Origin: a virus
Direction: 5' to 3' (one strand)
DNA length: 27,558 nucleotides
UHGV virus genome: UHGV-1805288
Shown: in pieces, positions 10,574-26,341 of the stretch
How positions within the stretch are numbered: position 1 is the first letter of the stretch
How the letters are laid out: every line of letters starts with the position of its first letter
The notes under the pieces: model-generated
Told to the model about the DNA's origin: nothing
The model's input: the letters and a program-made list of their open reading frames with translations, nothing else
Database searches by the model: none
Position numbers and translations under genes: made by a program

Positions 10574-11673
10574 AAGACAATTCTTTCTTTAAATAATTGT
10601 AAAAATTTCTCTGGCCCTTCATCAATAGGACTAGCTTTATAGCTTGTTAACATATTCTTATCAAAAATAAATGAAATAATTACATCATTTTTAAACTTAC
10701 TTCTTATTTTAAGTAAATTATTTTTTAAATGCTTAAATTCTTTATCATCTATTTCTTGAAATTGTCTATCAAAAGCGATAATAATTTCTTCAGCTCCACA
10801 ATCCAAAAGCTCTTGAATTTGATAAACGGAGACCGCACTTCCGCAACAAGCAACTGAAATATTATTATTCCATCCAAAATAGCTCGCATATTTAAGAACT
10901 GACTTTTCTGATTCAAATATAATAGCTTTTTTCATAATTCCAATCACTCTTTTAGACCAATTTAATCCATATAGATTCATTCCAAGAGGGTGATTATAGA
11001 GAAGCTTATTAATGCGCAAAGGATAATATTTACCTCGATTTTCAGCTTCTTCTTGGCCCATTGTACGACCACGCAATCCTACAAATCGGTTATTAATATC
11101 ATAATGAGGAATCGTAATTGCATTATCTCCTGGATAAAATCCTATATGAGCATTGTCAATTACTAATTGAGAAATTTTTTCATCTAACCATGGCTATAAT
11201 TTTACTTTGTAATTAAATTTACTAAGAATATCAGAATTATATTCATTTAATATAACATGATTTTCTTTTACTTCTAATTCTTTAATATGAGAATATTTAG
11301 AAAATATTTTCCAATCTTCTAATTTTTCATCTTCGTCCTTTTGATATGAACCATTTAACCCAAATCGATGCGCAATCCACATAACCGCATCATTAAGGTC
11401 AAATTCTTTATCAAATTGGATTTTCATTACTTTAGTACATAACTCAAAAATATCAAATGAAGGGTCTTCACAACCAGTATAACAATGAAATAAATCAGTA
11501 TTTGTATAATAATATAATTTACGAGAACCAATACCAGGTAAATTATGACAAATTGTTGCGGAAACGACCCCGAATGAAGTGTATTGAGGGTCGCCTCCCC
11601 AGTCATTCAATAAATCATAAATATTTTCAATCGTTAATGATTTTCTAATTTCTGACTTATCGAATACTAACAT
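10570..11673 (-). CDS. DNA primase (N-terminal zinc-binding region plus TOPRIM domain)
   Basis: Track ORFs 11194..11673 and 10570..11076 share a frame and are joined through the single TAG at 11194..11196. N-terminus FHCYTGCEDPSFDIFELC is zinc-finger-like; TOPRIM-like IIFESEKSVLKYAS and IIIAFDRQFQEIDD. ATG 11673; stop TGA 10570..10572. Confidence 0.6.
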
Positions 11674-11840
11674 TAATAAATCAACACTCTCTCACAATTG
11701 TAAAGAAGGCCGCATTGTTCATTAACATAATCACAAAGAACCTTTTGAGGATTACTTGCAGCTCTCTTGCCAGCCATCTTCAAAATTTCATTAGCCATCT
11801 TCTCAGGCATCTTATATTCAATACTTCCACACTTTTTCAT
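11673..11840 (-). CDS. small Cys-containing hypothetical protein (55 aa)
   Basis: ATG 11840..11838 with AAAAGGAG upstream. Translation MKKCGSIEYKMPEKMANEILKMAGKRAASNPQKVLCDYVNEQCGLLYNCERVLIY. Stop TAA overlaps the primase ATG (TAATG). Confidence 0.45.
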   Translation of the reverse strand: MKKCGSIEYKMPEKMANEILKMAGKRAASNPQKVLCDYVNEQCGLLYNCERVLIY

Positions 11841-11862
11841 AATTTATCTCCTTTTTATCAAG

Positions 11863-12135
11863 TTAAAAAGCGCTTTCTTCTTCTTGTAATCTAATTTTTA
11901 CATCATCAATTGGAACTAATTCGTATTGATAAGTAGTACAAAACAATGGTTTAATACGACAAGTGCCCAAATCTGCAGAACACCATAAATAAATACCTTT
12001 ATAACGTCCACGTCTATTTTTATAAACTGACATTTTAAGGTTTGGAGTAGCAAATACATTGGTATTTAATACTTTGTCTAATTTAACTAAATCATTATCA
12101 GTTACATTTAATAGAATTGCGCCATAATCTACTTT
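11863..12135 (-). CDS. dnaB: replicative DNA helicase DnaB-like, exon 2 (C-terminal 90 aa)
   Basis: Frame from 12135 reads KVDYGAILLNVTDNDLVKLDKVLNTNVFATPNLKMSVYKNRRGRYKGIYLW...EEESAF then TAA 11863..11865. It matches the DnaB C-terminal region (compare E. coli QDADLIMFIYRDE...IIGKQRNGPIGTVRL). Confidence 0.7.
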   Translation of the reverse strand, partial: KVDYGAILLNVTDNDLVKLDKVLNTNVFATPNLKMSVYKNRRGRYKGIYLWCSADLGTCRIKPLFCTTYQYELVPIDDVKIRLQEEESAF

Positions 12136-13315
12136 CTTTACTACCTTATATCTCTATAAGGAATAGACTATATCTTTACCATGCTTATTAAAATAAGTTT
12201 AGGTAGACCGTACTTCGAGATTAAATCTCTACTCTCCGCCACGAGATAGTCGTTGAACCTTGCTCTGTTCGAGCCTGGGCTGCGCTGGTTGCCTAATTCA
12301 TTTAATTTTTAAAACATTCACGCTTAGGTTTGTTTCATCCTTACGTTGTAGTTTAAATGACTCTAAAGGGTTTCCCGCAATTCTCGGTCTGATAATCACT
12401 TGACGTTTCCATCAAGGACGACTGTTTCCAAAATTTTATATAATTCATATTTTCTATCTAGATGAATTTTACAAGAATCGTATAGTTGTTTTAATATATA
12501 ATAAGGTTTATTAGTACCACCACAGCGAATATAATAACTATTTTTATTATCATTAGCATTACGTTTTTCTAATTTTACCTCCCAATTTAATATACTACAT
12601 ATCCATAATAATAATTCTTGGGTTCCTTGAATACTAATAGTAAAATTATTATATTGAGATGTTTTTGAAATACTTCCATCTCCATCAAAATATCCTAAAA
12701 TGAATGGTAAATAAAATTCTTCAGAAATAATGGGAGGTTTTAGTATTAAACTTTTTCTTGGTACAATTCCTTTATTACTTAAATCATTAGACATTTTTTT
12801 GCTATTAAGAGTTAAGCGAGCCATTGGAGTATTATTAGAATAACCCTCATTTATAATATACGAATTAATTTTAGCATTTGTATTACAAAACTTCTAAAAT
12901 TTTTTTAAATGGGAAATATCTTTCTAATTGATATTAATTATAATTGAAGCATTATGTTCTCTTACATAATTACATCCATCAGCAGCCAAAAATCCTAGCC
13001 AATAAGCTTTTTCAGATGTATCAATTATTTCAAAAATATCATAATTTCCATTATATTTCTATGTGCGTTCTCGTAAAATAATATTTTCTTTATTTTCATC
13101 TAAAATACGTTTAATAGTTTTACGAGAAACCTAATAATAATCTCCAAGTTTTTGCTATGTCCAATTATTATTATATTTAGTTAATATATCATTAATTTGT
13201 TCTTGTGAAAATTCAATTTTTCTCATAGTTATCGCTCCTGTAATAGATTAAGGGATTATCCTCTAATCTATTTAAAAAACGATATAAATGAATTATAAAA
13301 TTTTGTCCAATCAGC
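12136..13315 (-). mobile_element. group I intron in dnaB, carrying a LAGLIDADG homing endonuclease ORF
   Basis: P-like AAUUGCGGGAAACCC (rc of 12368..12382). R-like CAACGACUAUCUCG (rc of 12242..12255) pairs with S-like AAGAUAUAGUC (rc of 12166..12176) as P7 GACUAU/AUAGUC. P9 hairpin CCUUAUA-GAGA-UAUAAGG (12144..12161). Candidate omega-G at 12136. Junction placed where exon 1 ...LRGAKSI joins exon 2 KVDYGAILL... to recreate the DnaB LRxSGSIEQDADL region. The 5' splice site is the least certain part (P1 lacks a U-G pair); boundaries could shift a few nt. Confidence 0.65.
12396..13226 (-). CDS. intron-encoded LAGLIDADG homing endonuclease (two motifs)
   Basis: ATG 13226..13224 with AGGAG upstream. 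Translation contains KAYWLGFLAADGCNYV and LPFILGYFDGDGSISK. Five in-frame TAG (13155, 13131, 13059, 12924, 12894); stop TGA 12396..12398. Track ORF 12396..12824 is its C-terminal piece. Confidence 0.85.
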
Positions 13316-14569
13316 AATAGATTTCGCTCCTCGCAATAAATTCTGGTCTGGAGTTTCTGAATCGACATATCCACCATTAAGCTGCGTTGCTGACATAATA
13401 AATATACCATATTGATTACATAAGTCTTTTAATTTTACAGATAACATAAATAGAATATTATCTTCACGGAGTTTAACTCCACCACTACGACGAGTAATTT
13501 CTTCAAGAATTTTCATACTTGTTTGAATATAATCAAAGAAAATATACTTTACATCATGGTCACGTAGAGCTTTTTTAATTTCATTCTCTACGTCCTATAA
13601 TGAAAAATCTGGTAGCTCTCGTAAATATAGAGGACTGTCTTTAATAATTTCCGCGGCCTTGTGAATACGTTCTTCTTCATCACCCTCATAAGTATTATTA
13701 AGAATATGTTCTTCATTTACATTAGCAAGAAACGCAAGCATCATAGTTTGCACTTCACTCTTATCTTGCTCTGTGGCGATAAATAAAACCGGTTCACTCA
13801 AACCATTATGAATCCATCCAAATGTTTCATCATAAATTTTATTACAAGCAATATAGCATGCATCTGCAACCATAGAACGAGTCTTACCAGTACCAGTAGC
13901 TGCGGACCGCAAATAAAATTTCTTTAATCGCGCACCACGAGTAATTGTATTTACCAATGGCCCATATAATGGACTTCCTGCTTCTGGATGTTCTTTAAGA
14001 TTATCTAATAGATCAAAGATTCCATCACCCGCTTGAATGGCCGCACCATCTACATTTTTTACATATTCATACTTAACTTCTTCAATTCTATCATCTACTA
14101 ATTGCGCTAAATGTTCTAATGAAGAGTTATCAAGATTATCTTCTTGCTTTTGTTTTTTTTCTACATCAAGAATATTATCAGGGTCATAAATAAATGATAC
14201 GTCAATACCATATTTATCATAAGCCCGTAACAATGACATTTTTTTCAAACGATTATAATAATAATCAAATGATAATAATTTAGCATTTTCAGAAACTTTC
14301 ATTAACCATTCTTCGCCTTTATTAGCATTAAAAATGCCTTCATATTTAGGGCGAGTAGATAAAAAATCAAGAATATTTTCTAATGAAACTTTCTCAGCGC
14401 CCAATTCATGAAGTTTATAAATAGCGCCAAAAACAATACGATGAAAATCATCATTAAAATCTTCATCAGTAATTACATATTTATCTGTATAATCCAATAG
14501 CTGGGGTGTGTTATATACACACCCTATAACTTGGGTGACAGCGGTAGAATCTACATATTTACTTCCCAT
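13316..14569 (-). CDS. dnaB: replicative DNA helicase DnaB-like, exon 1
   Basis: Track ORFs 13595..14593 and 13268..13516 share a frame, joined through TAG 13595..13597. Walker A LRSAATGTGKTRSMVADACYIA; H2-like KYIFFDYIQTS; ATQLNGG...NLLRGAKSI. Start most likely the ATG at 14569 (MGSKYVD...) with GAGGAGG 9 nt upstream. Exon 1 + exon 2 = 1527 nt = 509 codons. Confidence 0.8.
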
Positions 14570-15134
14570 CCGCGGGCGCCTCCTCTTCATCAAGGAATGA
14601 AAATAATTTTCTGCGATATGGTTGTCGCTTTGGTAGAGGAATAACTATTTCTATTACTTTTGGAACGTATTGTTGAATTTCTTTATCTTCATTTACTTGA
14701 TGAGCTAACCATAAATCGTAATAATAATTATAACTATCTTTATAAATATAGGGCACAATACCAATTCCGCCATTAGATTTTTCGATAGAATTGCCTTTTA
14801 CTTCATAAAAATATTTTAATGCTTTTAAAATACCAGAATAAGTATATTTATATTCATTAACATATTGATTAATCTATTTGCGAATCCGCGGATTAAGATA
14901 TTCCACTTGAAATAATTTCATAATATATTTTTCTAATTTCTTTTTATCTTCTTCTTCCTATTGAGCTTGTTCAATAGATTTTTTTTCAGCGGCGAGTTTT
15001 TCTAAATATTCTGGCTAATATTCAGGATGTTCACAATTGGTATGTGCATATCTATTACTACGAGGTTTAATATATTGATAAACTTCAGTATCAAATGTTT
15101 GCTAACAATAAAGACATTTTACATTGTGTGCTAT
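14559..15134 (-). CDS. hypothetical protein with N-terminal C2HC zinc-finger-like motif, just upstream of and overlapping dnaB (position suggests a helicase accessory role); start codon unresolved
   Basis: Frame open from TAA at 15138..15140 to TAA at 14559..14561 apart from 5 in-frame TAG. Translation (I)AHNVKCLYC-TAG-QTFDTEVYQYIKPRSNRYAHTNCEHPEY...YIYKDSYNYYYDLW...EEAPADGK. No in-frame ATG/GTG/TTG lies between the upstream stop and the first Cys; ATA at 15134..15132 sits 7 nt after AAAGGAGGAA. Track ORF 14559..14756 is its C-terminus. Confidence 0.5.
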
Positions 15135-15157
15135 AAATTATTCCTCCTTTCTTATAT

Positions 15158-15186
15158 ATTATAACATATTTTTCAAAAAAAATCAA
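15158..15186 (-). promoter_or_regulatory. sigma70-type promoter (TTGATT-N17-TATAAT, TG-extended -10)
   Basis: Plus strand attata 15158..15163 and aatcaa 15181..15186, 17-nt spacer; minus strand reads ...TGTTATAAT. Lies immediately upstream of the zinc-finger/dnaB/primase gene string. Confidence 0.55.
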
Positions 15187-15218
15187 CCCAAAGCGATTTT
15201 AGGGTCGCTCTGGGTTGA
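15183..15218 (-). terminator. rho-independent terminator after the Sak4-like gene
   Basis: Arms tcaacccaaagcga / tcgctctgggttga (14 bp, one G-U), 8-nt loop, followed on the minus strand by U8 (rc of aaaaaaaa at 15173..15180). Confidence 0.65.
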
Positions 15219-15233
15219 TAAAATCTATTTTAA

Positions 15234-16232
15234 TTAACCCTTATTAAGTTGAGGAAGAAGGTCTTCCTTCATTTCAGTTACAATCAAGCTAATAAATTCA
15301 GCTTGATCCATGGTAGCATCAGAAACTTTCTTACCTTTACCCAAGTATTTATCAACAATTTGAGTAATACGAGGAGCAAAGAAATTAGGATTCTTATTCA
15401 TCATCTGACCAGTTAGCTCTTGGAACTCATTAATAAGAGCATCATAGTCATAAGATTTAGCGACCTCAGCAACTTCACGTTCATTAGTAACATACTTATT
15501 ATCGTGCATAGCGGCTTCCTTATCAATAGCATCATTAAGAGCCTTAACAAGATTATCATAAGTAAATTCAATCACAGGAGTAATATACTTAAAACGACAA
15601 CCAGTCTCAGCGCTATTGTCAGGAGAACGAAGAACAAGTCTCACCTTAGCTTCACCATTCTCAGTATACTTTTCAGCATAAGCATAAATGTCAGCCATGT
15701 CCTTAGCAATGTTATTATAAGAAGTAGGACAAGTAGGAACAATTTGGTTATACTCAATACCATTCTTATTCTTAAAGGTCTTATCCTTAGAGTGAGAAAT
15801 AAAAACAACAGCATAACCAAGTTGAGTAATTGTGCGGAAAGTCTCTTCAAATTCCTTCTTTACTAAAGTCCAACCTTGACCATAAGGAATACCAGAAAGC
15901 GCATCTACACCATTCTATGAACAAATATATTTCTCACAAAGACCGCCAGCAACATCAACAGTATCAACTGCAATAGACTTAAATCTCTCTTTAACTTCTG
16001 GCTTTTTAAGTTCACGCAAAACCTGCTTCATTTCACCCCAGGTAGTAACATCCTGAGCAAAAACACCAGGCAAAGCATTATAACCTTTCTCAAACGCCAG
16101 AATCAGCGGACTTGGCATATGAGAAGCAAATGTAGTCTTACCACTTTTCTCAGCACCATAAACATAGGTAATATAACCAGAAAGGTCTCTACTAACTTTA
16201 TGGGGCTAAATAGACATTAAATCAATACCCAT
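15234..16232 (-). CDS. Sak4-like / AAA_24-type RecA-fold ATPase (recombination protein), tentative
   Basis: Track ORFs 15915..16118 and 15234..15698 share a frame; full frame open from ATG 16232 (GGAG upstream) with 2 in-frame TAG (16206, 15915). Walker A YVYGAEKSGKTTFA followed by ILAFEKGYNALPGV...VTTWGE...IAVDTVD. Confidence 0.5.
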
Positions 16233-16234
16233 TA

Positions 16235-16399
16235 TTAATTCTCCTTATTATTTTCATCATTAATTATAAAAGCTTCACATTGTTTTAATAAAATATCTAC
16301 TATTTCCTATTGTTTTATATCAAAAGCAATATCATTAAATAAATTTAATTTAGCACGTTGGCCCCTAATGGGGCCATCGTCTTCAAGTGGTAAATTCAT
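16235..16399 (-). CDS. possible small ORF (54 aa) between the SSB-like gene and the Sak4-like gene; may be non-coding
   Basis: ATG at 16399..16397 directly after a TAATAA double stop. Translation MNLPLEDDGPIRGQRAKLNLFNDIAFDIKQ-TAG-EIVD...; it contains the GC hairpin ggcccc-taat-ggggcc (16360..16375), so this may be a terminator rather than a gene. Confidence 0.2.
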
Positions 16400-16402
16400 T
16401 TA

Positions 16403-17341
16403 TTAGAAATTAAAGCCACCAGCTGCAGGAGCCGCAATATTACTCTGACGAGAAGCCTTATACTCATCTTGACGTTGTTTAATAGTAGCAAGATAAGTCT
16501 GACGCTCAGTCATGGCCTAATTAAGCTCAGCTGCAGTAATAAAGTTTTCATCATCCCAAGGATAAGGTTCCTTGGCACCACCAGTAATTACAAAATCCTT
16601 ACGAGTGCTCTGAACCTCACGAACACTATCATCACCAAAAGCGGACTCCTCACGCTCAATACGCTTAATCACTTCAGAAATCTGACGACCCCAAACCTTA
16701 GTGAAAACAGGCTCAGAGTTAGTAGCACCAAGTCCCTCATAATAAGCCATAGCGCCCTCAGAAGTCGCGCTAAATTCAACGGGGAGTAGAGCCTTACGGA
16801 AATCAAAAATAGCGCCACGCACAATAACCTTTTCAGGAAGATTGCGCTCCTCATTAGCATCAATATGAGAAACATTAGTAATAATCATATCACACTTAAA
16901 AGTATTACGCTGATCTTCGGTGACAAGTTCAGCAGGATTATTGATAATATGAACAAATCCACCCTCATTACGCTTAGTACTTACAAGCTCTTCCTTACCA
17001 TTACGATCAGAATAGAACTCATTAAGGCCAATAGCAGAATCAACACGAATAAGAGCAGCTTTATCAGCTCCATCCTTCATATAAGTGCCAATAGCTCCAT
17101 CAATAATATTGCGAAGAGTGCTATAAGTAGCATTAGCACTTCCCTTTGCAGTAGTCGCAGTTACATAAGTAAAATGAACCTACACAATATTAGTAACATT
17201 ATCATCAGTAGCAATACTAATTGTACCACTAATAAAAGGAGTACCAGGATTCTTAGAATTAGGACCACTTTCCTTGGCAGTCAAATCATGCTCGTAAAGA
17301 ATGCCTTCAATATGAGTTGTATTAGTAATTGTCTTCATCAT
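16403..17341 (-). CDS. hypothetical protein (313 aa); possibly an ssDNA-binding or annealing partner of the Sak4-like ATPase
   Basis: Track ORF 16517..17080 extends through TAG 16517 and TAG 17180 to ATG 17341 (AAGGAGA upstream) and stop TAA 16403..16405. Ends ...AAPAAGGFNF. No motif I can name with confidence; the function is a guess from gene neighbourhood only. Confidence 0.3.
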
Positions 17342-17416
17342 AATATTATATTTCTCCTTAAATTTAAATCAAATTAACTTCAATAAAATTTTCTAATTCT
17401 TAATTACTATATTTAT

Positions 17417-17445
17417 ATTATAAAATATTTTTTTAGAATTGTCAA
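17417..17445 (-). promoter_or_regulatory. sigma70-type promoter, perfect TTGACA-N17-TATAAT
   Basis: Plus strand attata 17417..17422 and tgtcaa 17440..17445, 17-nt spacer; about 75 nt upstream of the ATG at 17341. Confidence 0.6.
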
Positions 17446-17447
17446 AT

Positions 17448-18083
17448 TTAATTTACTAAAAACTCTCGCGCATATGGTAATGTTTCAATCCAATCACAAA
17501 ATGCTCGCCATTCAGGTAAGCGATGATCATGGCGCTATTTATAAATATTGCGCAAACAACGATAATTTGTAGTCATACGCGCGGTAAGTCTAAATCCAGC
17601 AGGATTAGAATAAAGAATTTCAAGATATCTACGTTTTGCTTCTTCTTGTAGCTAATTCCGTAGATTTTCATCTTCTGGACCAAGAGCTTCAATACGAGAA
17701 ATGAGATTGTTGTAATCATTTACCTTTTCTCGCATAATATCAATAATGCGCTTATCCACATATTCGATATACTATTGATCTAAATCAAACTTAGTAATGC
17801 GGTGCATTGTTGATTGAGAAGAAACAAATTCAAGGAATCTATATCGCTCAGCTTCTACCCATGCTTTATTAGTAAAACAAAGGTCAAAATTGACTCGAAT
17901 ACCAGTCAGAAACTAATGATGTGCGGTATTACCAGTTTTCGTAGCATTTACTAAACGAACACCACGCTAGATATCCTTATCTTCTATAGGACGCATTTCA
18001 GCTTTTGTACGCATAGGATAACCAGAAGCAATAATGCTTTCTTCAAGGTCATAAATTTTTACATTGGATACAATCTAATTCAT
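17448..18083 (-). CDS. thyX: possible flavin-dependent thymidylate synthase (ThyX-like), tentative
   Basis: ATG 18083 with GAGG 6 nt upstream; frame open to TAA 17448..17450 apart from 6 in-frame TAG. Weak resemblance to ThyX blocks: KAWVEAERYRFLEFVSSQSTMHR (compare RQWFRHRIASYNELSGRY) and TNYRCLRNIYKQRHDHRLPEW (compare [20 protein letters not shown]). Confidence 0.35.
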
Positions 18084-18090
18084 TTATACC

Positions 18091-19065
18091 TCACTTAATA
18101 CTATAACCAAATTCTTTAGCTTTAAAATAATTCTACCAATAATCTTCTCGTGTATCAAGCTCTTCACGAGAACATTCTTCGATTACTTCAAAACTAAAAT
18201 TTTCAACTCCAAGAGCTAACATAGCAGGATAAAGTTTATTGCGGGTTGGCGTTTCCGCTCCAATACCACGCTTGATATGCTACTTCCATCTTGCTGCCAG
18301 GTCAACAGCCTATCCTACATAGCACATTTGGTTATCAAGATTAGTAATCTTATAAATACCAGTATGAGTTCCTGAACCAATTACTCGACCAATTAAATCA
18401 GTTGTTGGTTTTTCATAATAACTTTTCCAAATAACTTTATTTAATGTTTCTTTATCGCGTAAATGAGGTTCAATTGACCGTAGTAGTTTAATTTCTTCAA
18501 TATCCACAGATGATAACTATAATTTATAAAAATTAGCTTGATTTTTAATTTCTTCAGTACGTTTAGCTGCTTCAATAGCCGCGTCAACTTCACGAGTTAA
18601 TTTAAAAATCTTATCATCTAAAACTTCTAATTCTCTTTGTTTCTCTTGGATTAAATTTACTAAATCTTCTGAGCAACCAGCCATCAAGTTTTTATAACTA
18701 GATTTATAATCTTGTTTAGCCTACTCATATTTACTTTCTTCTAGCTCTAAATCGTGTGCGATATTAGTTCTAGCTAATTCCATAGACTATTTAAAAAATA
18801 CTTCCGCTGATTGCTTGGCCTAGTTTTGTAATAGGTCTAGACTATTAGAAACTTCTTCTCTTTGAATCTTTAATGAACTTAACTCTTTTGTGAGAGTTTC
18901 TTTTTCATCAACTAGTTGTTTATTAAAATTGTATAACTAACGATTCTCTGTTTCGATTTTCTAATCGTATCGCTGTGTTAATTTTAATTTGGGGCGTAAA
19001 ATTAAATACATTAATACACATCCAAGAATTAATGCGATACTACCTACAATTAAATAAATAGTCAT
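18091..19065 (-). CDS. protein with N-terminal transmembrane helix, coiled-coil middle and C-terminal GIY-YIG-like nuclease domain (DUF4041/T5orf172-like architecture)
   Basis: ATG 19065; frame open to TGA 18091..18093 apart from 9 in-frame TAG. N-terminus MTIYLIVGSIALILGCVLMYLILRP is hydrophobic; middle is K/E-rich heptad-like; C-terminus THTGIYKITNLDNQMCYVG-TAG-AVDLAARWK...REDYW-TAG-NYF. Track ORF 18310..18507 is an internal piece. Confidence 0.5.
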
Positions 19066-19077
19066 ATCTAATAAAAT

Positions 19078-19097
19078 GGGGCAGATTACTCTGCCCC
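19078..19097 (-). terminator. terminator hairpin
   Basis: ggggcaga-ttac-tctgcccc (8-bp GC-rich stem) after the stop at 19118, followed on the minus strand by AUUUUAUUAGAU. Confidence 0.55.
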
Positions 19098-19117
19098 ATA
19101 ATTAATCTATGTTTAAA

Positions 19118-19387
19118 TTACTCAGCATCAGTGGCATCAGGGTCAAAAGCCATGCCAGCCTCGGTCAAGCTCAGAAGCTTGATGGGCTTGTGAGAACCAT
19201 CCTCAAGCTCCATCTCAGCGGGAGTGCGAATGCCAAGACCCTTGCGCTGAATAGCAGAGGTAAAAATACCATCAACAGAACGCTTCTCGAGACCGAGAGC
19301 AGCAGCAACATCAGCGGCGGTCACATCCTGACCCTAAACACTCTTCAAATATTCAAAAACCTTACGAGAATTTTCCTTCATAGCCAT
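19118..19387 (-). CDS. small winged-helix-like DNA-binding protein (89 aa), GC-rich gene
   Basis: Track ORF 19118..19324 extends through TAG 19334..19336 to ATG 19387. Translation MAMKENSRKVFEYLKSV-TAG-GQDVTAADVAAALGLEKRSVDGIFTSAIQRKGLGIRTP... Stop TAA 19118..19120. Base composition is visibly more GC-rich than the flanks. Confidence 0.45.
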
Positions 19388-19453
19388 AATAAATAAATCT
19401 CCTTAATAAAAATAAAATTTTAATTTTTAAGCATTTCTTTTGCTTATGTAAAC

Positions 19454-19482
19454 ATTATATCAAAAATTTTTTTATTTGTCAA
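19454..19482 (-). promoter_or_regulatory. sigma70-type promoter, perfect TTGACA-N17-TATAAT
   Basis: Plus strand attata 19454..19459 and tgtcaa 19477..19482, 17-nt spacer; the -35 overlaps the last codons of the upstream small gene. Confidence 0.6.
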
Positions 19483-19672
19483 GTGCTTTACCAAGAATGT
19501 CTTGAACCATTTCGTCAATGATAATAGTATCTTCCAAACAACTTACATGACTAGTTAAATCCATAATATCTAGCTCTGCTTGCCGGATTTTTGACTTATC
19601 ATCACTAGTCTAAATGGTCAATTCAGCTTGAGCAATCTTCTTAGCTAAGTTCTTGAGTTCTTTCTTTTTCAT
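19472..19672 (-). CDS. small hypothetical protein (66 aa), coiled-coil-like
   Basis: ATG 19672..19670; translation MKKKELKNLAKKIAQAELTI-TAG-TSDDKSKIRQAELDIMDLTSHVSCLEDTIIIDEMVQDILGKALDK. Stop TAA 19472..19474. Confidence 0.4.
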
Positions 19673-19705
19673 CTAAAAAATTTCATCCTTAATTTTTACA
19701 AATAT

Positions 19706-19734
19706 ATTATATCACAAATTTTTTATTTTGTCAA
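19706..19734 (-). promoter_or_regulatory. sigma70-type promoter, perfect TTGACA-N17-TATAAT (TG-extended -10)
   Basis: Plus strand attata 19706..19711 and tgtcaa 19729..19734, 17-nt spacer; the -35 overlaps the ligase stop codon. Confidence 0.6.
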
Positions 19735-20855
19735 AAAAGATCGGTTAAACGACAATCTTTGACATCTTTATCATCACGGAAACCCTTAAAAAAGGCATGA
19801 CGCAAAGTATGGTCATCCTTGTTTTTTTCCATACACTGAATAGCAACAACACGATTTAAATATTTTTCTGGATGCTTAGCAAAATCTGCTTTTAATTCAT
19901 CTGTAAGACCTGATGATACTGTTCCAATTTCTATAATTTTATTATTATCATCATAAGCACCAAGTCGAATAGATGTTTTCCATCCATAAAAATAAGGTTT
20001 AGTAACAGGTTCCATTGGAGTTTTAATCATTACACATCCAGCATCATTTAAATATCTACCATGGTAAAGATCACCACTCATAGTTTCAATCCAATATTCC
20101 CAAGTATTTAATTCTTTGCCATTATATTGTTTTGTAGCATCTTCAAACCCGATACAAATACAATCCAAAAAATCCATTTTCTTTACTTTAATTGAAGACC
20201 AAGCAGGTCGTTTATCAGGAGCATACACAGCATCTCGTTTTTTTAAAACAACACCCTCTTCACCCGCATTGAGAGCAGCTGCTGTAAACTCTTGAATATC
20301 ATCTTCTACGCTTTTGGCCAATTCTAAATAATTATATTGTTGTAAATTAAACTTATTCCAAATTTTTGTAAGAATTTGATATCTAACCCATGCACCTTCA
20401 TTTTGTAAATCTACACCATTATATTTAATAACATCATGTAGATAAAAATGAATTAAACCGCTTGTTTGCTGTCTAGTAATAGCTTCATCACTCAGACAGC
20501 CCATAATTTTTGTCACATCTTTTGAAGTTTTTCTAGGATAATAAATTTCACCAATCAAGATAGTGCCTGCTGGTAATTCGGTAAATGCTTCTTTAATATG
20601 AGGAACATTTGCTAATTTTTCAGTAAGAATACCAGTTGTTTTACTTACATTGCGACTAAATAAATAATCATAATGTTCAGTTTTTTCATACTGATACCAA
20701 TATCCATCCTTTTTTAATTCAGCAAAATATTTGCCACTATTACATACAGATGGAAACATATTTTCTTTACCATCAGGCAATTTCCAAATTTTCATTGCTT
20801 GGATACACTCCGCTTCAGGAGCATATTTATCAAGTAATTCTTTTGAAAAACTCAT
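19731..20855 (-). CDS. ATP-dependent DNA ligase
   Basis: Track ORF, 374 aa, no in-frame TAG. Motif I AELKKDGYWYQ (KxDG), motif III ILIGEIYY, motif IV EGVVLKK, motif V SIKVKK. ATG 20855 with AGGAAAAG upstream; stop TGA. Confidence 0.85.
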   Translation of the reverse strand: MSFSKELLDKYAPEAECIQAMKIWKLPDGKENMFPSVCNSGKYFAELKKDGYWYQYEKTEHYDYLFSRNVSKTTGILTEKLANVPHIKEAFTELPAGTILIGEIYYPRKTSKDVTKIMGCLSDEAITRQQTSGLIHFYLHDVIKYNGVDLQNEGAWVRYQILTKIWNKFNLQQYNYLELAKSVEDDIQEFTAAALNAGEEGVVLKKRDAVYAPDKRPAWSSIKVKKMDFLDCICIGFEDATKQYNGKELNTWEYWIETMSGDLYHGRYLNDAGCVMIKTPMEPVTKPYFYGWKTSIRLGAYDDNNKIIEIGTVSSGLTDELKADFAKHPEKYLNRVVAIQCMEKNKDDHTLRHAFFKGFRDDKDVKDCRLTDLF

Positions 20856-20881
20856 AATTTCTTTTCCTATCTTTATATATT

Positions 20882-20910
20882 ATTATACAAAAAGTTTTTT
20901 GAAAAGTCAA
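20882..20910 (-). promoter_or_regulatory. sigma70-type promoter (TTGACT-N17-TATAAT) upstream of the ligase
   Basis: Plus strand attata 20882..20887 and agtcaa 20905..20910, 17-nt spacer. Confidence 0.55.
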
Positions 20911-20916
20911 GTGTTA

Positions 20917-20942
20917 GGTGGCGAAGAACTCGCTTCACCACC
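20917..20942 (-). terminator. GC-rich hairpin after gyrA (terminator or RNA-stability element)
   Basis: ggtggcgaag-aactcg-cttcaccacc (10-bp stem) just 3' of the gyrA stop at 20949; no clear U-tract follows, so termination efficiency is unclear. Confidence 0.35.
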
Positions 20943-20948
20943 CTTATA

Positions 20949-23333
20949 TCAAATCTTAGTAATAGATTTTACATTACCAGTATTAATAAGCGCATTACCC
21001 AATCCGCCACGAGTTCCAATAGGAATATCTTTGGCAGAAATACAAATAGTAGTTTTTTCACCAATGATTAAAATATTATCATCATCAGAAATTAAAGTAC
21101 CACCAATAATACGCTTTTCTGTACTATCTACTTTATATACAGAACTACCTTTCCCTCCACGTCTTTGAACAGGATATTCACTAAGAGGGATTTTCTTGCC
21201 GAGTCCGCAATATGAAAATACAGCAAGAGTATCATTTGTATCTCGGATAGGTAAAGCTGCAACTACTTCATCACCTTCTTTAAGGGTAATAGCCTTAACT
21301 CCTGTACTTACACGACTAGCCGAAGACAAATCTTCAGTAGCAATATGAATAGCCATACCATTTTTAGTAAGAATAAGTACATCTTCATTTTTAATCAAAG
21401 ATACTGAAGCTAGACTATCTCCATCACGGAAATGAGTTGCAATAAGTCCACTCTTTTTAGTATTGATATATTCACTGAGCGCAGTCTTTTTAATTAAACC
21501 ATTCTTAGTTATAAACAATACATATTCCGCTTGGGTATCTTTATAAATAGAATACATAGTAGAAGGCTGTTCATCAGCGCTCATTTTAGTCAAAAGTTTA
21601 ATAGATGTTCCAAGAGAAGCATTAGTACCCACAGGAATATTATTTACTAATAACCGATACATTAAACCCTTATTACTAAAAATCATAAGTGAATCAACAG
21701 TATTTGTGCGTAGTACACAAGAAGTAATATCATCTTGTGACTTTACTCCCTTACCATTGCGCTTCTGAGTGCGAAAACTCGTGGTGGGAATACGCTTAAT
21801 GGTGCCACCTTCAGTCATTACAACTACACATTTCTCAGGTTCAACATATACAGTCTCTTTTTCTTCTTTTGGAATTGTATAATTAGTAAGTTTAGTGCGG
21901 CGCTCATCACCATAATTTTTCTTTAATATTTTAATTTGCTCAATTAAAACATTATCTCTATGGTCTTTATCATTAATAATTTTTAAACATTCAGCAACAA
22001 TTTCTTCATTTTTACGTTTTTCATCAACTAATTCATTTTTATCAATACGAGTTAACCTTGATAACTTCATATCAAGAATAGCATTTGCTTGAACTTCATC
22101 AATAGATAAGAAATTAATTAGTTTATTGCGCGCATCATCTTTATTAGCTGATTGTTTAATTAATTCAATTACTTCATTAATTTTATCAATAGCTGCGAGT
22201 AACCCAACTAAAATATGGATACGAGTTTCCGCCTTTTCTTTGTCAAATTTAGTTGCGTTAAGTAATACATTAGTTTGATGGTCAACATAGGCTTTAATAA
22301 GAGTCTTTAATGAACATAATTGCGGAGTGCCATTAATAATGAAATTCATATTATAAGAGAGAGTAGTTTGTAAATCAGTAAGCTTAAAAATAGTTTCAAG
22401 CGCAGAATTTACATCTATACCTTTTTTAATGGTGAATACAAGTTTATTATTACCAATACTACTTTCATCATCAAAATCTTCAATAAATTTTTCTAAAATT
22501 TCAATATTTTTATTGATATCTTCCTTAATCTTATTGCGATAAGTACGATAAGGAATGGAAGTAAATGTAATTACTCGATCCTTAATTTCATAATCACCGC
22601 GCACTTTAAGAGAAATTGCTGATTTACCCGTATCATAAGCCACATAAATATCTTTTTGATTAATAATTATGCCGCCCAGAGGAAAATCAGGGCCAAGAAT
22701 ATATTTCATTAACTCTTGGGTATTAATTTCACCATTAGCTTGAATATAAGCAATAATACCATCACAAACTTCAGAAAGATTGGCGGGTAAACTATTATGG
22801 CTCATAGAAATACCAATAGCTTCTCTACCATTTACAAGAGCATTAGGAAATAATGCTGGAAGAATGATTGGCTCCATAAATTCACCATTATAAGTTTCTT
22901 TCATAGGAACAACATTCTTTTTAAATGAATTAAACATTAAGTCCGCATACTTACTAGGCTTAGCCTCTGTATAGCGGCTTGATGCAACCATTGAGTTATC
23001 TTCTTGGGTCCCCAAAGCACCTTGACCTTGAATAAGAGGATAGCGCATTAAATAATCTTGTGCCATCTTATAAAGAACACCATAACAACTAGCATCACCA
23101 TGGAAATAACTAGTCATAAGAGTAGAGCCAACTAAACTGTTACATTTCTTAGTTTTACTTTTATTAGTCATTTTAAGATAGTCTTCCATTGTCCAAAGAA
23201 TTTTGCGCTGAGCACTTAGAAGACCATCTTCTGCGTTAGGAATTGCGCGATCAGTAAGCACTTCCTCAGCATAGGTAAGGAAATTGTCTTTAGCTTCATC
23301 TAAAATATCAACTTCTGTAATATAATTTTCCAT
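20949..23333 (-). CDS. gyrA: type IIA topoisomerase subunit A (GyrA/ParC-like)
   Basis: Track ORF, 794 aa, no in-frame TAG. QRKILWTMED...YFHGDASCYGVLYKMAQDYLMRYPLIQGQGALGT...SSRYTEAK contains the active-site Tyr region. ATG 23333 with AAGGAG upstream. Confidence 0.9.
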   Translation of the reverse strand: MENYITEVDILDEAKDNFLTYAEEVLTDRAIPNAEDGLLSAQRKILWTMEDYLKMTNKSKTKKCNSLVGSTLMTSYFHGDASCYGVLYKMAQDYLMRYPLIQGQGALGTQEDNSMVASSRYTEAKPSKYADLMFNSFKKNVVPMKETYNGEFMEPIILPALFPNALVNGREAIGISMSHNSLPANLSEVCDGIIAYIQANGEINTQELMKYILGPDFPLGGIIINQKDIYVAYDTGKSAISLKVRGDYEIKDRVITFTSIPYRTYRNKIKEDINKNIEILEKFIEDFDDESSIGNNKLVFTIKKGIDVNSALETIFKLTDLQTTLSYNMNFIINGTPQLCSLKTLIKAYVDHQTNVLLNATKFDKEKAETRIHILVGLLAAIDKINEVIELIKQSANKDDARNKLINFLSIDEVQANAILDMKLSRLTRIDKNELVDEKRKNEEIVAECLKIINDKDHRDNVLIEQIKILKKNYGDERRTKLTNYTIPKEEKETVYVEPEKCVVVMTEGGTIKRIPTTSFRTQKRNGKGVKSQDDITSCVLRTNTVDSLMIFSNKGLMYRLLVNNIPVGTNASLGTSIKLLTKMSADEQPSTMYSIYKDTQAEYVLFITKNGLIKKTALSEYINTKKSGLIATHFRDGDSLASVSLIKNEDVLILTKNGMAIHIATEDLSSASRVSTGVKAITLKEGDEVVAALPIRDTNDTLAVFSYCGLGKKIPLSEYPVQRRGGKGSSVYKVDSTEKRIIGGTLISDDDNILIIGEKTTICISAKDIPIGTRGGLGNALINTGNVKSITKI

Positions 23334-23344
23334 TAATAATCTCC

Positions 23345-25240
23345 TTACACAAAATTAAAACCAAGGGTTGTAGCATTTTCATAAATATACTGCTTACGAG
23401 GATTCACATTAGGCCCTTCAAGAATATCAAGAAGTTTAACTGTAGCCTCAGCATCACTAACAGTTAAGCGCTTATAACGCTGATTATCAAAACAAATCTC
23501 CTTGAGGGTGGCCGCATTCAGCTCACCGAGACCTTTCGCACGCAAGAGGTCATAAGAACCTGTATGACTAGCTTTCCAATCGTCAAGTTCCTTTTCACTA
23601 TAACAAAAATATTCTTTGTCTTTTTGTTTGATAATATACAGCGGAGTTATAGCTCGATATAATTTACCTGCTTCGACAAGGGGTCTCATATAAGTATAAA
23701 AGAAGGTAATTAATAGTAACTCAATAGCCGCGCCATCTGAATCTTGATCTGAAGTAATAATAATTTTATCAAAATTCATCTTATTGACATCAAAATTATT
23801 ACCAAATCCAGCGCCAATTACTCGAATAATATCACTAATCTCCTGATTAGCTAAAAGTTTTTCAAGAGATTGTTTTAGAGGACTAATAATTTTACCTCTT
23901 AAAAGGTAAATACAATCAGTCTTTACATTACGAGCTTCAACCGCTGAAGTAGCTGCTGACTTGCCCTCAACTAGAAGTAAATTGCGTTGAGAAGGGTCTT
24001 TATTAACACAATCAAAAAATTTATCACTAATAGCCATTTTAGCCTTTAAACCTTTTTCTTTAGGCTGACGAACAGCTTCCTTAGCCTTTTTAGCTTTCTC
24101 GCGTGCGGTTCGTGCTAATAAAGCTTTATCAATGATTGCTTTCGCATCTTTTGGGTTACTATTTAACCAGACTTTTAAATCTTTAGAAACCAATCTTTGA
24201 ACAGCGGTTCTAGCTTCACTACTGGATAAAACATCCTTAGTCTGACCTGAAAATACTGGATCAGGCATAATAAATGAAAGGACGAGACTTAAACCTTCTT
24301 TAAGCTCTTCACCAGTAATATTACTATCTTTATCTTTCAAAAGTTTATTATCTCGCGCGTATTCATTAATCGATTGAGTAAGTGCGGTGCGGAAACCAGT
24401 TAAATGAGTCCCACCACTATTGGGAATTGAATTTGTATAGAGTTTATAATTATCATTATAACTCTCATTATATAACATAGCAATTTTAACACCAATTCTA
24501 TCTTCCATATTTTCAGTATAAAAAATTGATGTTAATTTCTTTTTATTCTTATTAATATCTTCAATATAATCAAGGATACCATGTTGAGAAGTAATTACTT
24601 CTTCGGGTTTATCCTTGTATTTAAATTTAAATGTAAGACCAGGAGAGAGATAAGCTAACTCTTGAATTTGATTTCTAAGAGAAGTGTAATCAAGCTCAAT
24701 AGTTTCTTTAAAAATTTCAGCATCTGGTAAAAACTTTACCCAAGTACCAGTTTCTTTTCCAGCCCATTTTTCTTCTTTATAATCAATAAGTTTACCACGA
24801 ACGAATGAAGCAACTGCGTGTTTACCATCACGAAATGATACAACTTGAAAATGTTCAGATAAGGCATTAGTAGCTTTCGCACCAACACCATTCATACCAC
24901 CTGAAGTATTATAACCAGTTTTACCATTGCTATCAAACTTAGCACCAGTATGAAGCTTAGTATAAATATTTACAAGTGTTTCACTACCATCTTTCGCTTT
25001 GCCAAATGGCACACCACGTCCATTATCACGAATTTCAACATTATTATCTTTATCAATTATAATATCGCATTCAGTGCAATGACCATTTAAATATTCATCT
25101 ACACAATTTGAAATAATTTCAAGCGTAATATGTTTGATACCATCCGCGCCAATCGAGCCGATATACATACCAGGTCTGAGTCGAATCGCGTCAATACCCT
25201 CAAGAGTTTTTATTGATTTTACACCATAATCTTCTGACAA
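23345..25240 (-). CDS. gyrB: type IIA topoisomerase subunit B (GyrB/ParE-like)
   Basis: Track ORF, 631 aa, no in-frame TAG. GHKL ATPase motifs (LEGIDAIRLRPGMYIGS, NGRGVP, GGMNGVGAKA) and TOPRIM (LLLVEGKSAA, DQDSDGAAI). TTG start at 25240 with GGAGGAGG upstream. Confidence 0.9.
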   Translation of the reverse strand: MSEDYGVKSIKTLEGIDAIRLRPGMYIGSIGADGIKHITLEIISNCVDEYLNGHCTECDIIIDKDNNVEIRDNGRGVPFGKAKDGSETLVNIYTKLHTGAKFDSNGKTGYNTSGGMNGVGAKATNALSEHFQVVSFRDGKHAVASFVRGKLIDYKEEKWAGKETGTWVKFLPDAEIFKETIELDYTSLRNQIQELAYLSPGLTFKFKYKDKPEEVITSQHGILDYIEDINKNKKKLTSIFYTENMEDRIGVKIAMLYNESYNDNYKLYTNSIPNSGGTHLTGFRTALTQSINEYARDNKLLKDKDSNITGEELKEGLSLVLSFIMPDPVFSGQTKDVLSSSEARTAVQRLVSKDLKVWLNSNPKDAKAIIDKALLARTAREKAKKAKEAVRQPKEKGLKAKMAISDKFFDCVNKDPSQRNLLLVEGKSAATSAVEARNVKTDCIYLLRGKIISPLKQSLEKLLANQEISDIIRVIGAGFGNNFDVNKMNFDKIIITSDQDSDGAAIELLLITFFYTYMRPLVEAGKLYRAITPLYIIKQKDKEYFCYSEKELDDWKASHTGSYDLLRAKGLGELNAATLKEICFDNQRYKRLTVSDAEATVKLLDILEGPNVNPRKQYIYENATTLGFNFV

Positions 25241-25241
25241 T

Positions 25242-25751: not shown

Positions 25752-25782
25752 AGTCAATTTTCTCCTTTATTTACTTATTTAT

Positions 25783-25811
25783 ATTATACCATAAATTTAA
25801 AAATTTGTCAA
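25783..25811 (-). promoter_or_regulatory. sigma70-type promoter, perfect TTGACA-N17-TATAAT, upstream of the RNase H-gyrB-gyrA string
   Basis: Plus strand attata 25783..25788 and tgtcaa 25806..25811, 17-nt spacer. Confidence 0.6.
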
Positions 25812-25834
25812 ATTTTATTGAGCTACAATAAAAT

Positions 25835-25863: not shown

Positions 25864-25907
25864 AAGAAATAAGAGAAGAATGTAGATAAGATTTATAATT
25901 ATTAACT

Positions 25908-26339: not shown

Positions 26340-26341
26340 TC

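What the first reader, a model, noticed from the sequence alone, without database searches (positions are those of the whole stretch)
14559..15140. Zinc-finger protein upstream of dnaB has no canonical start codon; possible AUA initiation
The reading frame that encodes a C2HC-like finger (KCLYC...HTNCEH) and overlaps the dnaB start is bounded upstream by TAA at 15138..15140. Between that stop and the first Cys there are only six codons and none is ATG, GTG or TTG. A strong SD (AAAGGAGGAA, 15141..15150) sits 7 nt before ATA at 15134..15132. Either translation begins at this near-cognate codon, which would limit expression, or the true N-terminus is produced some other way.
Basis: seen in the sequence. 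Interest (0 to 1): 0.45.

Follow-up and report, generated by a model that had tools for sequence, protein, structure and literature searches.

The report
AUA start codon of phage yorH
A zinc-finger replication-module gene (YorH family) of an uncultured amber-recoded phage really does lack ATG/GTG/TTG and almost certainly starts at AUA behind an unusually strong ribosome-binding site; about a quarter of this gene family does the same, and gene callers mis-annotate it.

Summary
On the minus strand an in-frame TAA (15140..15138) is followed by TTT ATA GCA CAC AAT GTA AAA TGT(Cys), with no ATG/GTG/TTG before the C2HC finger. The ATA (15134..15132) lies 8 nt after GGAGG, inside a 10-nt anti-SD match (AGAAAGGAGG).

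Homologues (PF26927 Phage_SPbeta_YorH) begin M-A-H-x-V-K-C-x-x-C, so the ATA sits exactly at their Met1. Five independent metagenome assemblies of 97-98% relatives carry the identical leader and ATA, so it is not a sequencing error.

Among 47 dereplicated family clusters the start position reads ATG 26, ATA 10, GTG 5, TTG 4, ATC 2. Further lineages read ATA, ATC and ATT. All have about 8 nt after GGAG, and several have a stop 2-3 codons upstream. Codons 2-36 are under strong purifying selection in ATA lineages (pN/pS 0.04).

Best reading: genuine AUA initiation by fMet-tRNA, giving attenuated and possibly IF3-sensitive YorH synthesis. S. aureus infC, ccpN and citZ work the same way.

The whole window is amber-recoded, with TAG read as Gln.

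This is a new member of a known kind. In vivo initiation remains untested.

The parts
15182..15219 (-). Intrinsic terminator of the upstream gene (AAA_24/YorG-like, which ends at 15234). It has a 15-bp stem followed by a T-run.
   Evidence: Three terminator-like sites were found in the scanned region against 0.2 expected. The sequence is identical in L001-L005.
15158..15186 (-). Sigma-70-type promoter of the yorH-dnaB unit. It has -35 TTGATT, a 17-nt spacer and a TG-extended -10 TATAAT (15163..15158). The inferred transcript start is about 15151, giving a leader of only about 17 nt.
   Evidence: 10 of 12 matches, TG present. TGnTATAAT-like elements are also seen just upstream of yorH in other lineages. 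The transcript start position is inferred, not measured.
15143..15152 (-). Extended Shine-Dalgarno sequence AGAAAGGAGG, 10 nt complementary to the Firmicute-type 16S 3' tail. The GGAGG core is at 15147..15143.
   Evidence: The duplex with the anti-SD is -16.3 kcal/mol, the second strongest among the window's long ORFs.
15138..15140 (-). In-frame TAA, two codons upstream of the start. It rules out any upstream in-frame start.
   Evidence: It is conserved in L001-L005.
15132..15134 (-). ATA, the proposed initiation codon of yorH. It lies 8 nt 3' of GGAGG and aligns with Met1 of the family.
14559..15134 (-). yorH coding sequence, 191 codons plus TAA. The product belongs to PF26927 Phage_SPbeta_YorH (phrog_4680). 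Four TAG codons are read as Gln: 15104..15102, 15017..15015, 14960..14958 and 14876..14874.
   Evidence: TAG 14876..14874 aligns with an invariant Gln.
15033..15116 (-). C2HC zinc ribbon (Cys7, Cys10, His31, Cys34).
   Evidence: The four residues are invariant columns. The AF2 model of homologue P0003 shows four short strands at residues 4-30. pN/pS is 0.04 over codons 2-36 in ATA-start clusters.
15119..15124 (-). Out-of-frame ATG-TAA 'start-stop', 18 nt after the SD. It is judged to be a by-product of the codons for N-V-K.
   Evidence: It is absent from lineages that encode H-K-V-K.
14919..14921 (-). First in-frame canonical ATG (codon 72, the internal Met of the conserved YIMKL motif). This is the start that gene callers use for truncated products such as P0002.
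   Evidence: SD duplex only -3.0 kcal/mol.
14567..14585 (-). dnaB (yorI-like) initiation region: SD GAGGAGG (14585..14579), a 9-nt spacer, then ATG 14569..14567. The ATG overlaps the yorH 3' end by 11 nt.
   Evidence: The same 11-nt overlap is called in L001.

Best explanation
ATA at 15134..15132 is the genuine initiation codon of yorH, the first gene of a promoter-proximal yorH-dnaB unit in an amber-recoded, SPbeta-like uncultured phage.

Proposed mechanism. A short, unstructured leader presents a 10-nt extended SD. This anchors the 30S subunit so that the codon 8 nt downstream sits in the P site. There the ordinary initiator fMet-tRNA (anticodon CAU) pairs with AUA, with a mismatch only at the third position. 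The protein therefore starts fMet-Ala-His-Asn-Val-Lys-Cys and includes the C2HC finger.

Expected consequence. Near-cognate starts are proofread by IF3, so output should be a fraction of what AUG would give, and it may vary with host translational state. This would keep YorH low relative to the helicase, which has its own SD and ATG.

What is shown: the anatomy; the homology of ATA to Met1; reproducibility across assemblies; recurrence and retention of AUA/AUC/AUU starts in the family; purifying selection on the codons immediately downstream.

What is inferred: that initiation really happens there in vivo, that the first residue is fMet, that expression is attenuated, and that attenuation is adaptive.

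The confidence of 0.8 refers to 'AUA is the start codon'. That the weakness is adaptive or regulatory I put at about 0.5 given AUA is the start.
For: (1) There is no alternative start. TAA lies 2 codons upstream and the next canonical in-frame codon is codon 72, with no SD.

(2) ATA aligns with Met1. phrog_4680 aligns profile position 3 to residue 3. 81 of 120 homologues start M-[ASP]-[HK]-x-[VI]-x-C one residue before the same motif.

(3) It is not an error. L001-L005 are identical through the promoter, SD and ATA but diverge downstream.

(4) It recurs in the family. Of 47 clusters at 90% aa identity, 10 have ATA and 2 have ATC at this position, and each cluster is uniform internally. At least 6 switches are needed on an NJ tree, and ATA is kept in a clade whose members share only 54-65% aa identity. 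Extra lineages are L107 (ATT), L108 (ATA), L153 and L154 (ATC) and L155 (ATA).

(5) The spacing is right. GGAGG-to-ATA spacing is 7-9 nt in every ATA cluster. Several lineages have TGA or TAA 2-3 codons upstream and no canonical codon.

(6) It does not behave like an ordinary Ile codon. Internal Ile usage is ATT 62%, ATA 31% and ATC 7%, but the start position is 10 ATA, 2 ATC and 0 ATT (p=3e-4 per cluster, 0.013 per inferred event). No residue other than M, I or L ever occupies it.

(7) The finger is translated. Codons 2-36 in ATA clusters show 30 synonymous and 5 non-synonymous changes, pN/pS 0.04. C7, C10, H31 and C34 are invariant.

(8) SDs are somewhat stronger before ATA/ATC than before ATG (mean -13.4 vs -11.5 kcal/mol, p=0.04).

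(9) It is specific to this gene. All other long ORFs of the window use ATG or TTG. With the same picker, DnaB is canonical in 43 of 44 loci.

(10) There is precedent. AUA starts with extended SDs at S. aureus infC, ccpN and citZ give about 10-30% of AUG (PMC13009471). Cultured relatives also use weak starts: TTG in phage SPR and GTG in phage phi6255.
Against: There is no direct evidence of initiation: no ribosome profiling, toeprint or N-terminal peptide.

The host is unknown, so the strength of AUA there is unknown. In E. coli it is only about 1-2% of AUG (10.1101/063800).

The predominance of ATA can also be explained by mutation, since ATG to ATA is a transition in AT-rich genomes. Adaptive attenuation is therefore not demonstrated.

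In some lineages a canonical codon lies in frame just upstream, though with too short a spacing: TTG 3 nt after GGAG in L006, and ATG 2 nt after GGAG in L155. Those cases are ambiguous.

Cluster counts are not phylogenetically independent, and the tree is a simple NJ tree.

The SD-strength difference is marginal (p=0.04).
Confidence: 0.8

Rival explanations
1. AUA is the start codon, but its weakness has no regulatory purpose. ATG to ATA transitions are near-neutral here because the strong SD compensates and little YorH is needed, so lineages drift among ATG, GTG, TTG and ATH. This rival concerns only the purpose of the weak start; it agrees with the best explanation on where translation begins.
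For: All near-cognates seen are one step from ATG, and the commonest (ATA) is the transition product. The genomes are AT-rich (32% GC). An ATG lineage (L011) is nested inside the ATA clade, so the state flips both ways. The family uses many start codons overall.
Against: ATA is retained across a clade with only 54-65% aa identity. SDs are stronger with ATA/ATC. Only 55% of clusters use ATG and cultured relatives use TTG or GTG, which suggests a family-wide preference for weak starts. Conserved non-AUG starts elsewhere are regulatory (PMC13009471, PMC5499595).
Confidence: 0.3
2. The finger is not made. Translation starts at the internal ATG 14921 (Met72), or at a similar downstream site, giving a finger-less C-terminal protein. 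This is how gene callers annotated P0001 and P0002.
For: It is the first canonical in-frame codon. Database entries P0001 and P0002 are called that way.
Against: ATG 14921 has no SD (-3.0 kcal/mol). The start used for P0001 is not conserved: it is ATG in L001-4, GTT in the window and ATC in L005. The finger codons are under strong purifying selection in ATA lineages (pN/pS 0.04), and the Cys/His ligands are invariant. The strong SD sits upstream of the ATA, not of Met72.
Confidence: 0.04
3. yorH is a decaying gene in this phage. The start codon was lost by mutation and the ORF is no longer expressed.
For: Loss of ATG is a common first step of pseudogenisation.
Against: The 191 codons contain no TAA or TGA stop and no frameshift. 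Promoter, SD and ATA are identical in six assemblies. The same state occurs in 10 or more divergent clusters. pN/pS is 0.04-0.065.
Confidence: 0.02
4. AUA is read as a cognate start by a special factor, such as a phage- or host-encoded initiator-like tRNA with anticodon UAU (or a modified C34). Under this reading the start would not be weak at all.
For: Phages of this size often carry many tRNAs, and this phage must already depend on a suppressor tRNA for TAG. In vitro, AUA paired with a UAU initiator is efficient (PMC10158994). Only 27.5 kb of a genome of about 190 kb was available.
Against: No tRNA was found in the window or in 29 related loci. An exact scan of viral contigs for an initiator-type anticodon arm with UAU (CGGGCTTATAACCCG) gave 43 hits, none on a contig carrying yorH. 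AUC and AUU also occur at the same position, and a UAU anticodon would not read those well. Only one gene per genome shows the feature.
Confidence: 0.03
5. A sequencing or assembly error at 15132..15140 hides a canonical ATG.
For: It would take only a single base (ATA vs ATG).
Against: Five independent assemblies show the same bases. Several unrelated leader types in other lineages also carry ATA.
Confidence: 0.005

Closest known systems
AUA/AUU start codons with extended Shine-Dalgarno sequences in Firmicutes (S. aureus infC AUA, ccpN AUA which is also conserved in B. subtilis, citZ AUA, cvfC1 AUU; PMC13009471)
   Same: A near-cognate AUH codon is used in place of AUG. It follows a long SD/anti-SD match at a proper spacing, the non-canonical codon is conserved among relatives, and it is missed by annotation. 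One of the published cases (cvfC1) is also a small zinc-finger protein at the head of an operon.
   Different: Those cases are chromosomal genes with ribosome-profiling and reporter proof. This one is a phage replication-module gene from uncultured phages, has comparative evidence only, and shows repeated switching among ATG, GTG, TTG, ATA, ATC and ATT within one family.
E. coli infC and pcnB AUU starts (IF3-discriminated; infC is autoregulated)
   Same: A weak start codon is used to limit translation or make it IF3-dependent. This is the mechanistic model invoked here.
   Different: The codon here is AUA, not AUU. No link between YorH and IF3 is known, and no autoregulatory loop is expected.
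Phage T4 rIIB AUG-to-AUA mutant and the phage HB-3 hydrolase AUA construct (cited in PMC5499595, section 23)
   Same: They show that AUA can start a phage gene, at about 15% and about 7.5% of AUG respectively.
   Different: Those are laboratory mutants or constructs in E. coli. Here AUA is the natural, conserved state.
Bacillus phage SPbeta/SPR YorH (PF26927, phrog_4680)
   Same: Same protein family, and the same gene order YorF - AAA_24 (YorG) - YorH - DnaB-like helicase (YorI).
   Different: SPR starts at TTG. The protein is only about 31% identical to the window's. SPbeta is not amber-recoded. Neither protein has a known function.
DnaD-like replication proteins (C-terminal DnaD domain, e.g. 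PDB 2i5u, 2zc2)

Membership tests
Natural near-cognate (AUA) start codon with extended SD | A near-cognate codon occupies the position homologous to the initiator Met of orthologues. | tested here: met
   The window reads I-A-H-N-V-K-C where homologues read M-A-H-x-V-K-C.
Natural near-cognate (AUA) start codon with extended SD | No in-frame canonical start lies between the upstream stop and the conserved domain. | tested here: met
   TAA is at codon -2, and the first canonical codon is codon 72.
Natural near-cognate (AUA) start codon with extended SD | A strong or extended SD lies at functional spacing. | tested here: met
   The SD has 10 nt of complementarity and a duplex of -16.3 kcal/mol, with 8 nt from GGAGG to ATA.
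Natural near-cognate (AUA) start codon with extended SD | The non-canonical codon is conserved among relatives. | tested here: met
Natural near-cognate (AUA) start codon with extended SD | Ribosomes initiate at that codon in vivo, and the N-terminus is fMet/Met. | not testable with these tools
   This needs initiation-site profiling, toeprinting or N-terminal proteomics.
Natural near-cognate (AUA) start codon with extended SD | Output is reduced and IF3-sensitive relative to AUG. | not testable with these tools
   Only literature analogies are available.
PF26927 Phage_SPbeta_YorH / phrog_4680 | Significant profile or sequence match over the full length. | tested here: met
   phrog_4680 matches at E 6e-20 over residues 3-180. 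855 homologues were found, and the listed ones carry PF26927. The local Pfam copy gave no hit to this model.
PF26927 Phage_SPbeta_YorH / phrog_4680 | SPbeta-type synteny: YorF - YorG (AAA_24) - YorH - YorI (DnaB). | tested here: met
   One search gives the Pfam labels in L001, which is 97% identical to the window. Searches also support it.
Amber-recoded phage (TAG read as Gln) | In-frame TAGs occur in conserved genes, and coding density is restored when TAG is treated as sense. | tested here: met
   Coverage rises from 68% to 99%, and ORFs contain up to 12 in-frame TAGs.
Amber-recoded phage (TAG read as Gln) | TAG aligns with conserved Gln in homologues. | tested here: met
   TAG 14876..14874 falls in a column that is Gln in all other 19 aligned sequences.
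Amber-recoded phage (TAG read as Gln) | A suppressor tRNA(CUA) is encoded by the phage. | tested here: inconclusive
   None was found in the 27.5-kb window. The rest of the genome, about 190 kb, was not available.
DnaD-like replication protein | Fold of the DnaD C-terminal (DDBH2) domain. | tested here: inconclusive

The most novel reading that the evidence does not exclude
The YorH family has repeatedly been selected to start at IF3-proofread near-cognate codons (AUA > AUC > AUU, besides UUG and GUG) behind extended SDs. Synthesis of this helicase-associated zinc-finger protein, and through it the onset or rate of phage DNA replication, would then be gated by the host's translational state (IF3-to-ribosome ratio, growth rate, ppGpp). 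That would be a phage counterpart of infC/ccpN-type start-codon control.
Probability: 0.2. Interest if true: 0.65.

Novelty: new member of a known kind. Interest (0 to 1): 0.45.

Why it matters
Natural AUA starts are very rare in annotated bacterial and phage genes. Only recently were they shown, in S. aureus, to be a conserved way of attenuating translation when paired with extended SDs.

Here one phage gene family uses AUA/AUC/AUU in roughly a quarter of its dereplicated lineages. That gives a comparative data set for studying how weak starts arise, persist and are compensated.

There is also a practical consequence. Standard gene callers systematically mis-annotate this gene. They cut off the zinc finger (P0001, P0002, and phage phi6255 where a GTG start was missed), or they add spurious N-terminal extensions made from the SD or from a neighbouring gene's 3' end (P0020, P0031, P0035, P0050, P0070). 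These errors spread into protein databases and family models.

If the attenuation is adaptive, it points to dosage control of an uncharacterised replication-module protein next to the helicase.

Tried and rejected
- **Nucleotide search against cultured phages.** Window 14300-15500 in distant mode gave no match. The lineage is uncultured.
- **Local Pfam scan of the protein.** Only sub-threshold noise. The PF26927 label comes from precomputed annotations of homologues.
- **PDB sequence search with the family profile.** Nothing significant.
- **NCBIfam.** Only sub-threshold CxxC hits.
- **First structure job.** The model finally used is of homologue P0003, not of the window protein.
- **Leader RNA structure.** None beyond shuffled controls (z 0.72), so a structural switch is not indicated.
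- **Frameshift or re-initiation from the out-of-frame ATG-TAA (15124..15119) or ATG 15117.** Rejected. These lie 18 and 25 nt after the SD, are in the wrong frames, and are absent from lineages encoding H-K-V-K.
- **Special AUA-reading initiator tRNA.** No tRNA in the window or in 29 loci. The pattern scan found no hit on yorH contigs.
- **Link between TAG recoding and ATA starts.** ATA clusters include genes with and without in-frame TAG, and so do ATG clusters. No clear association was seen, and it was not pursued.
- **Rfam scan of 11700-15300.** No riboswitch or leader element near yorH.
Full report
**Observation.** On the minus strand the frame that encodes the finger is closed by TAA at 15140..15138. 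It then reads TTT ATA GCA CAC AAT GTA AAA TGT. No ATG, GTG or TTG lies between that stop and the first Cys (15116..15114). Further upstream the same frame has two more stops.

The intergenic region holds a strong intrinsic terminator (15219..15182). It also holds a promoter with -35 TTGATT, a 17-nt spacer and a TG-extended -10 TATAAT that ends at 15158. From this I infer a transcript start near 15151 and a leader of only about 17 nt. That leader shows no structure beyond shuffled controls (z 0.72).

The SD is AGAAAGGAGG (15152..15143), 10 nt complementary to a Firmicute-type anti-SD. Its GGAGG core ends 8 nt before ATA (15134..15132).

**Amber recoding.** It holds four in-frame TAGs. The whole window is amber-recoded. 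All genes are on the minus strand, and ORFs of at least 100 codons cover 68% of the window under the standard code but 99% with TAG as sense. TAG 14876..14874 aligns with a Gln that all 19 other aligned family members share, so TAG is read as Gln. No tRNA gene lies in the window.

**Identity of the gene.** The protein matches phrog_4680 (E 6e-20) from profile position 3 at residue 3. It has 855 homologues, and the listed ones carry PF26927, Phage_SPbeta_YorH. In a 97%-identical relative the neighbouring genes are PF27337 YorF, AAA_24 (YorG-like), YorH and a DnaB-type helicase. This is the SPbeta replication-module order, also seen in Bacillus phage SPR.

C7, C10, H31 and C34 are invariant. An AlphaFold model of homologue P0003 (mean pLDDT 79) shows three parts: an N-terminal four-stranded zinc ribbon, a helical domain at residues 48-137, and a disordered tail carrying the conserved KRKLFSFLDEEE motif.

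**Is the ATA the start?** Homologues begin M-A-H-x-V-K-C-x-x-C, and the window reads I(ATA)-A-H-N-V-K-C-L-Y-C. The ATA therefore sits exactly where the family's Met1 is.

A sequencing error is excluded. Five independent assemblies from at least four samples (L001-L005, 97-98% aa identity) are identical through terminator, promoter, SD, TAA, TTT and ATA, while differing downstream. One of those downstream differences is the codon that a gene caller used as the start for P0001. It is ATG in L001-4, GTT in the window and ATC in L005. That downstream start is therefore not conserved.

The only canonical in-frame codon in the window is ATG 14921 (codon 72). It is the internal Met of the conserved YIMKL motif and has no SD (-3.0 kcal/mol).

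**Family-wide census.** I collected 107 loci and read the codon at the Met1-equivalent position. After dereplication to 47 clusters at 90% aa identity the counts are ATG 26, ATA 10, GTG 5, TTG 4 and ATC 2. Each cluster is uniform internally.

The ATA lineages have different leaders:
- AAAGGAGGAATAATTT|ATA (the window)
- AAAGGAGTGATTGAAA|ATA
- GGTGGTGAGAACCA|ATA
- GGAAAGGAGTAATTTAT|ATA
- AAGGAGTGATAAAA|ATA
- GGGGGTGAAATGTT|ATA
- AAAGGATGTGATTTTCA|ATA

Several of these have TGA or TAA two or three codons upstream and no canonical codon at all. Database proteins with apparent N-terminal extensions ahead of an Ile turned out to be caller artefacts. The 'extension' is the SD itself or the 3' end of an upstream homing-endonuclease gene read in another frame. 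The real layout is again GGAG, 8 nt, then ATH. L107 has ATT, L108 ATA, L153 and L154 ATC, and L155 ATA. L155 is ambiguous because an ATG lies 2 nt after GGAG.

On an NJ tree at least six switches between ATA/ATC and other starts are needed. The window's own clade, whose members share only 54-65% aa identity, is mostly ATA.

**Tests of the start-codon reading.**
- GGAGG-to-ATA spacing is 7-9 nt in all ten ATA clusters, within the range seen for ATG clusters.
- Inside yorH, Ile codons are 62% ATT, 31% ATA and 7% ATC. At the start position the counts are 10 ATA, 2 ATC and 0 ATT (binomial p=3e-4 per cluster, 0.013 per inferred event). Among 120 homologues the position is never anything but M, I or L. 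It does not behave like an ordinary Ile codon.
- In ATA-start clusters, codons 2-36 show 30 synonymous and 5 non-synonymous changes (pN/pS 0.04), against 0.065 for the rest of the gene. The region just after ATA is therefore translated.
- SD/anti-SD duplexes are somewhat stronger before ATA/ATC (mean -13.4 kcal/mol) than before ATG (-11.5; p=0.04). The window's -16.3 is the second strongest among its long ORFs.
- The feature is specific to this gene. Every other long ORF of the window has an SD-linked ATG or TTG. The same permissive start-picker gives canonical starts for DnaB in 43 of 44 loci and for the upstream neighbour in 41 of 47. The few exceptions there are not anchored by homology.
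- Cultured relatives also avoid ATG. Phage SPR starts at TTG. Mammaliicoccus phage phi6255 has an unannotated GTG 54 nt upstream of its annotated start.

**Mechanism and comparison with known cases.** The best-supported mechanism is ordinary near-cognate initiation. The extended SD places AUA in the P site, and fMet-tRNA(CAU) pairs with it, with a mismatch only at the third position.

Published work provides calibration:
- AUA, AUC, AUU and CUG give 1-2% of AUG in E. coli (10.1101/063800).
- A T4 rIIB AUG-to-AUA mutation lowers translation by about 85%, and AUA gives about 7.5% of AUG for a phage HB-3 hydrolase (PMC5499595).
- In S. aureus the natural AUA starts of infC, ccpN (also conserved in B. 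subtilis) and citZ all have extended SDs. They give about 10% of AUG, and up to 30% for ccpN in rich medium (PMC13009471).

The yorH case has the same anatomy, so I file it as a new member of that kind. Two things are inferred only: that the weak start is adaptive, and that it makes YorH synthesis sensitive to IF3 or growth state. A neutral-drift version remains a serious rival. Under it, ATG-to-ATA transitions in an AT-rich genome are tolerated because the SD is strong and little protein is needed.

**Exotic alternatives.** An AUA-reading initiator tRNA found no support. There is no tRNA in the window or in 29 related loci. Of 43 viral contigs that hold an initiator-type anticodon arm with UAU, none carries yorH. 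AUC and AUU also occur at the same site. This test is limited, because only 27.5 kb of a genome of about 190 kb could be examined. Pseudogenisation, use of the internal Met72 start and assembly error are each contradicted by the conservation and selection data above.

**Verdict.** Added here are three points: the ORF is amber-recoded, near-cognate starts recur throughout the YorH family, and they are systematically mis-annotated. Direct proof of initiation is missing. Interest is moderate.

Noticed in passing
window 1..27558 (for example in-frame TAGs at 14876..14874 and 15104..15102): The whole window is amber-recoded. Treating TAG as sense raises coverage by ORFs of at least 100 codons from 68% to 99%, and individual ORFs hold up to 12 in-frame TAGs. 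One TAG aligns with an invariant Gln. No suppressor tRNA lies in the window.
   Followed up: partly
window 12136..13313: dnaB is interrupted by a 1,178-bp insertion that is absent from the 97%-identical relative L001. The insertion carries its own SD-ATG ORF (13226..12396, 277 aa, LAGLIDADG homing endonuclease). The upstream DnaB frame runs into a stop at 13256, and the C-terminal DnaB part resumes near 12135. It is probably a group I intron with a homing endonuclease and not an intein, but Rfam found no group I model.
   Followed up: partly
window 12126..12205 (minus strand): There is a sub-threshold Rfam match to LOOT RNA (RF03000; 28.6 bits against a gathering score of 46.4; E 0.011), right at the 3' junction of the dnaB insertion.
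   Followed up: no
window 19731..25261: Three consecutive large ORFs (383, 802 and 639 codons) contain no in-frame TAG at all, while neighbouring genes hold up to 12. This may be a block expressed before suppression is available.
   Followed up: no
L106 (Mammaliicoccus phage phi6255, PV389083.1, record positions 104574..105152): The YorH homologue is annotated from a downstream ATG (record position 104685), and a spurious reverse-strand CDS covers the gap. The homology-supported start is GTG at record position 104631 (GTG GCA CGA AAA GTT AAA TGT).
   Followed up: partly
Proteins P0001, P0002, P0020, P0031, P0035, P0050, P0070 and others; loci L107, L108, L153, L154: Database entries of this family are systematically mis-called. 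Some are truncated behind the zinc finger. Others are extended upstream through the SD (M-K-G-V = ATG AAA GGA GT.) or through the 3' end of an upstream gene.
   Followed up: yes
L107 520..645: In this lineage a homing-endonuclease-like gene (C-terminus ...GGYYWSFKK*) ends inside the yorH SD region, with its TGA stop overlapping GAGGTGA. yorH starts there at ATT.
   Followed up: no
window 14570..14580: A GC-rich island (GGCGCCCGCGG) sits in a 32% GC genome exactly between the dnaB SD and the dnaB ATG, inside the yorH 3' end.
   Followed up: no
window 15119..15124: An out-of-frame minimal ORF, ATG-TAA, lies 10 nt downstream of the ATA start. It looks like a by-product of the N-V-K codons and is absent from lineages encoding H-K-V-K.
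   Followed up: partly
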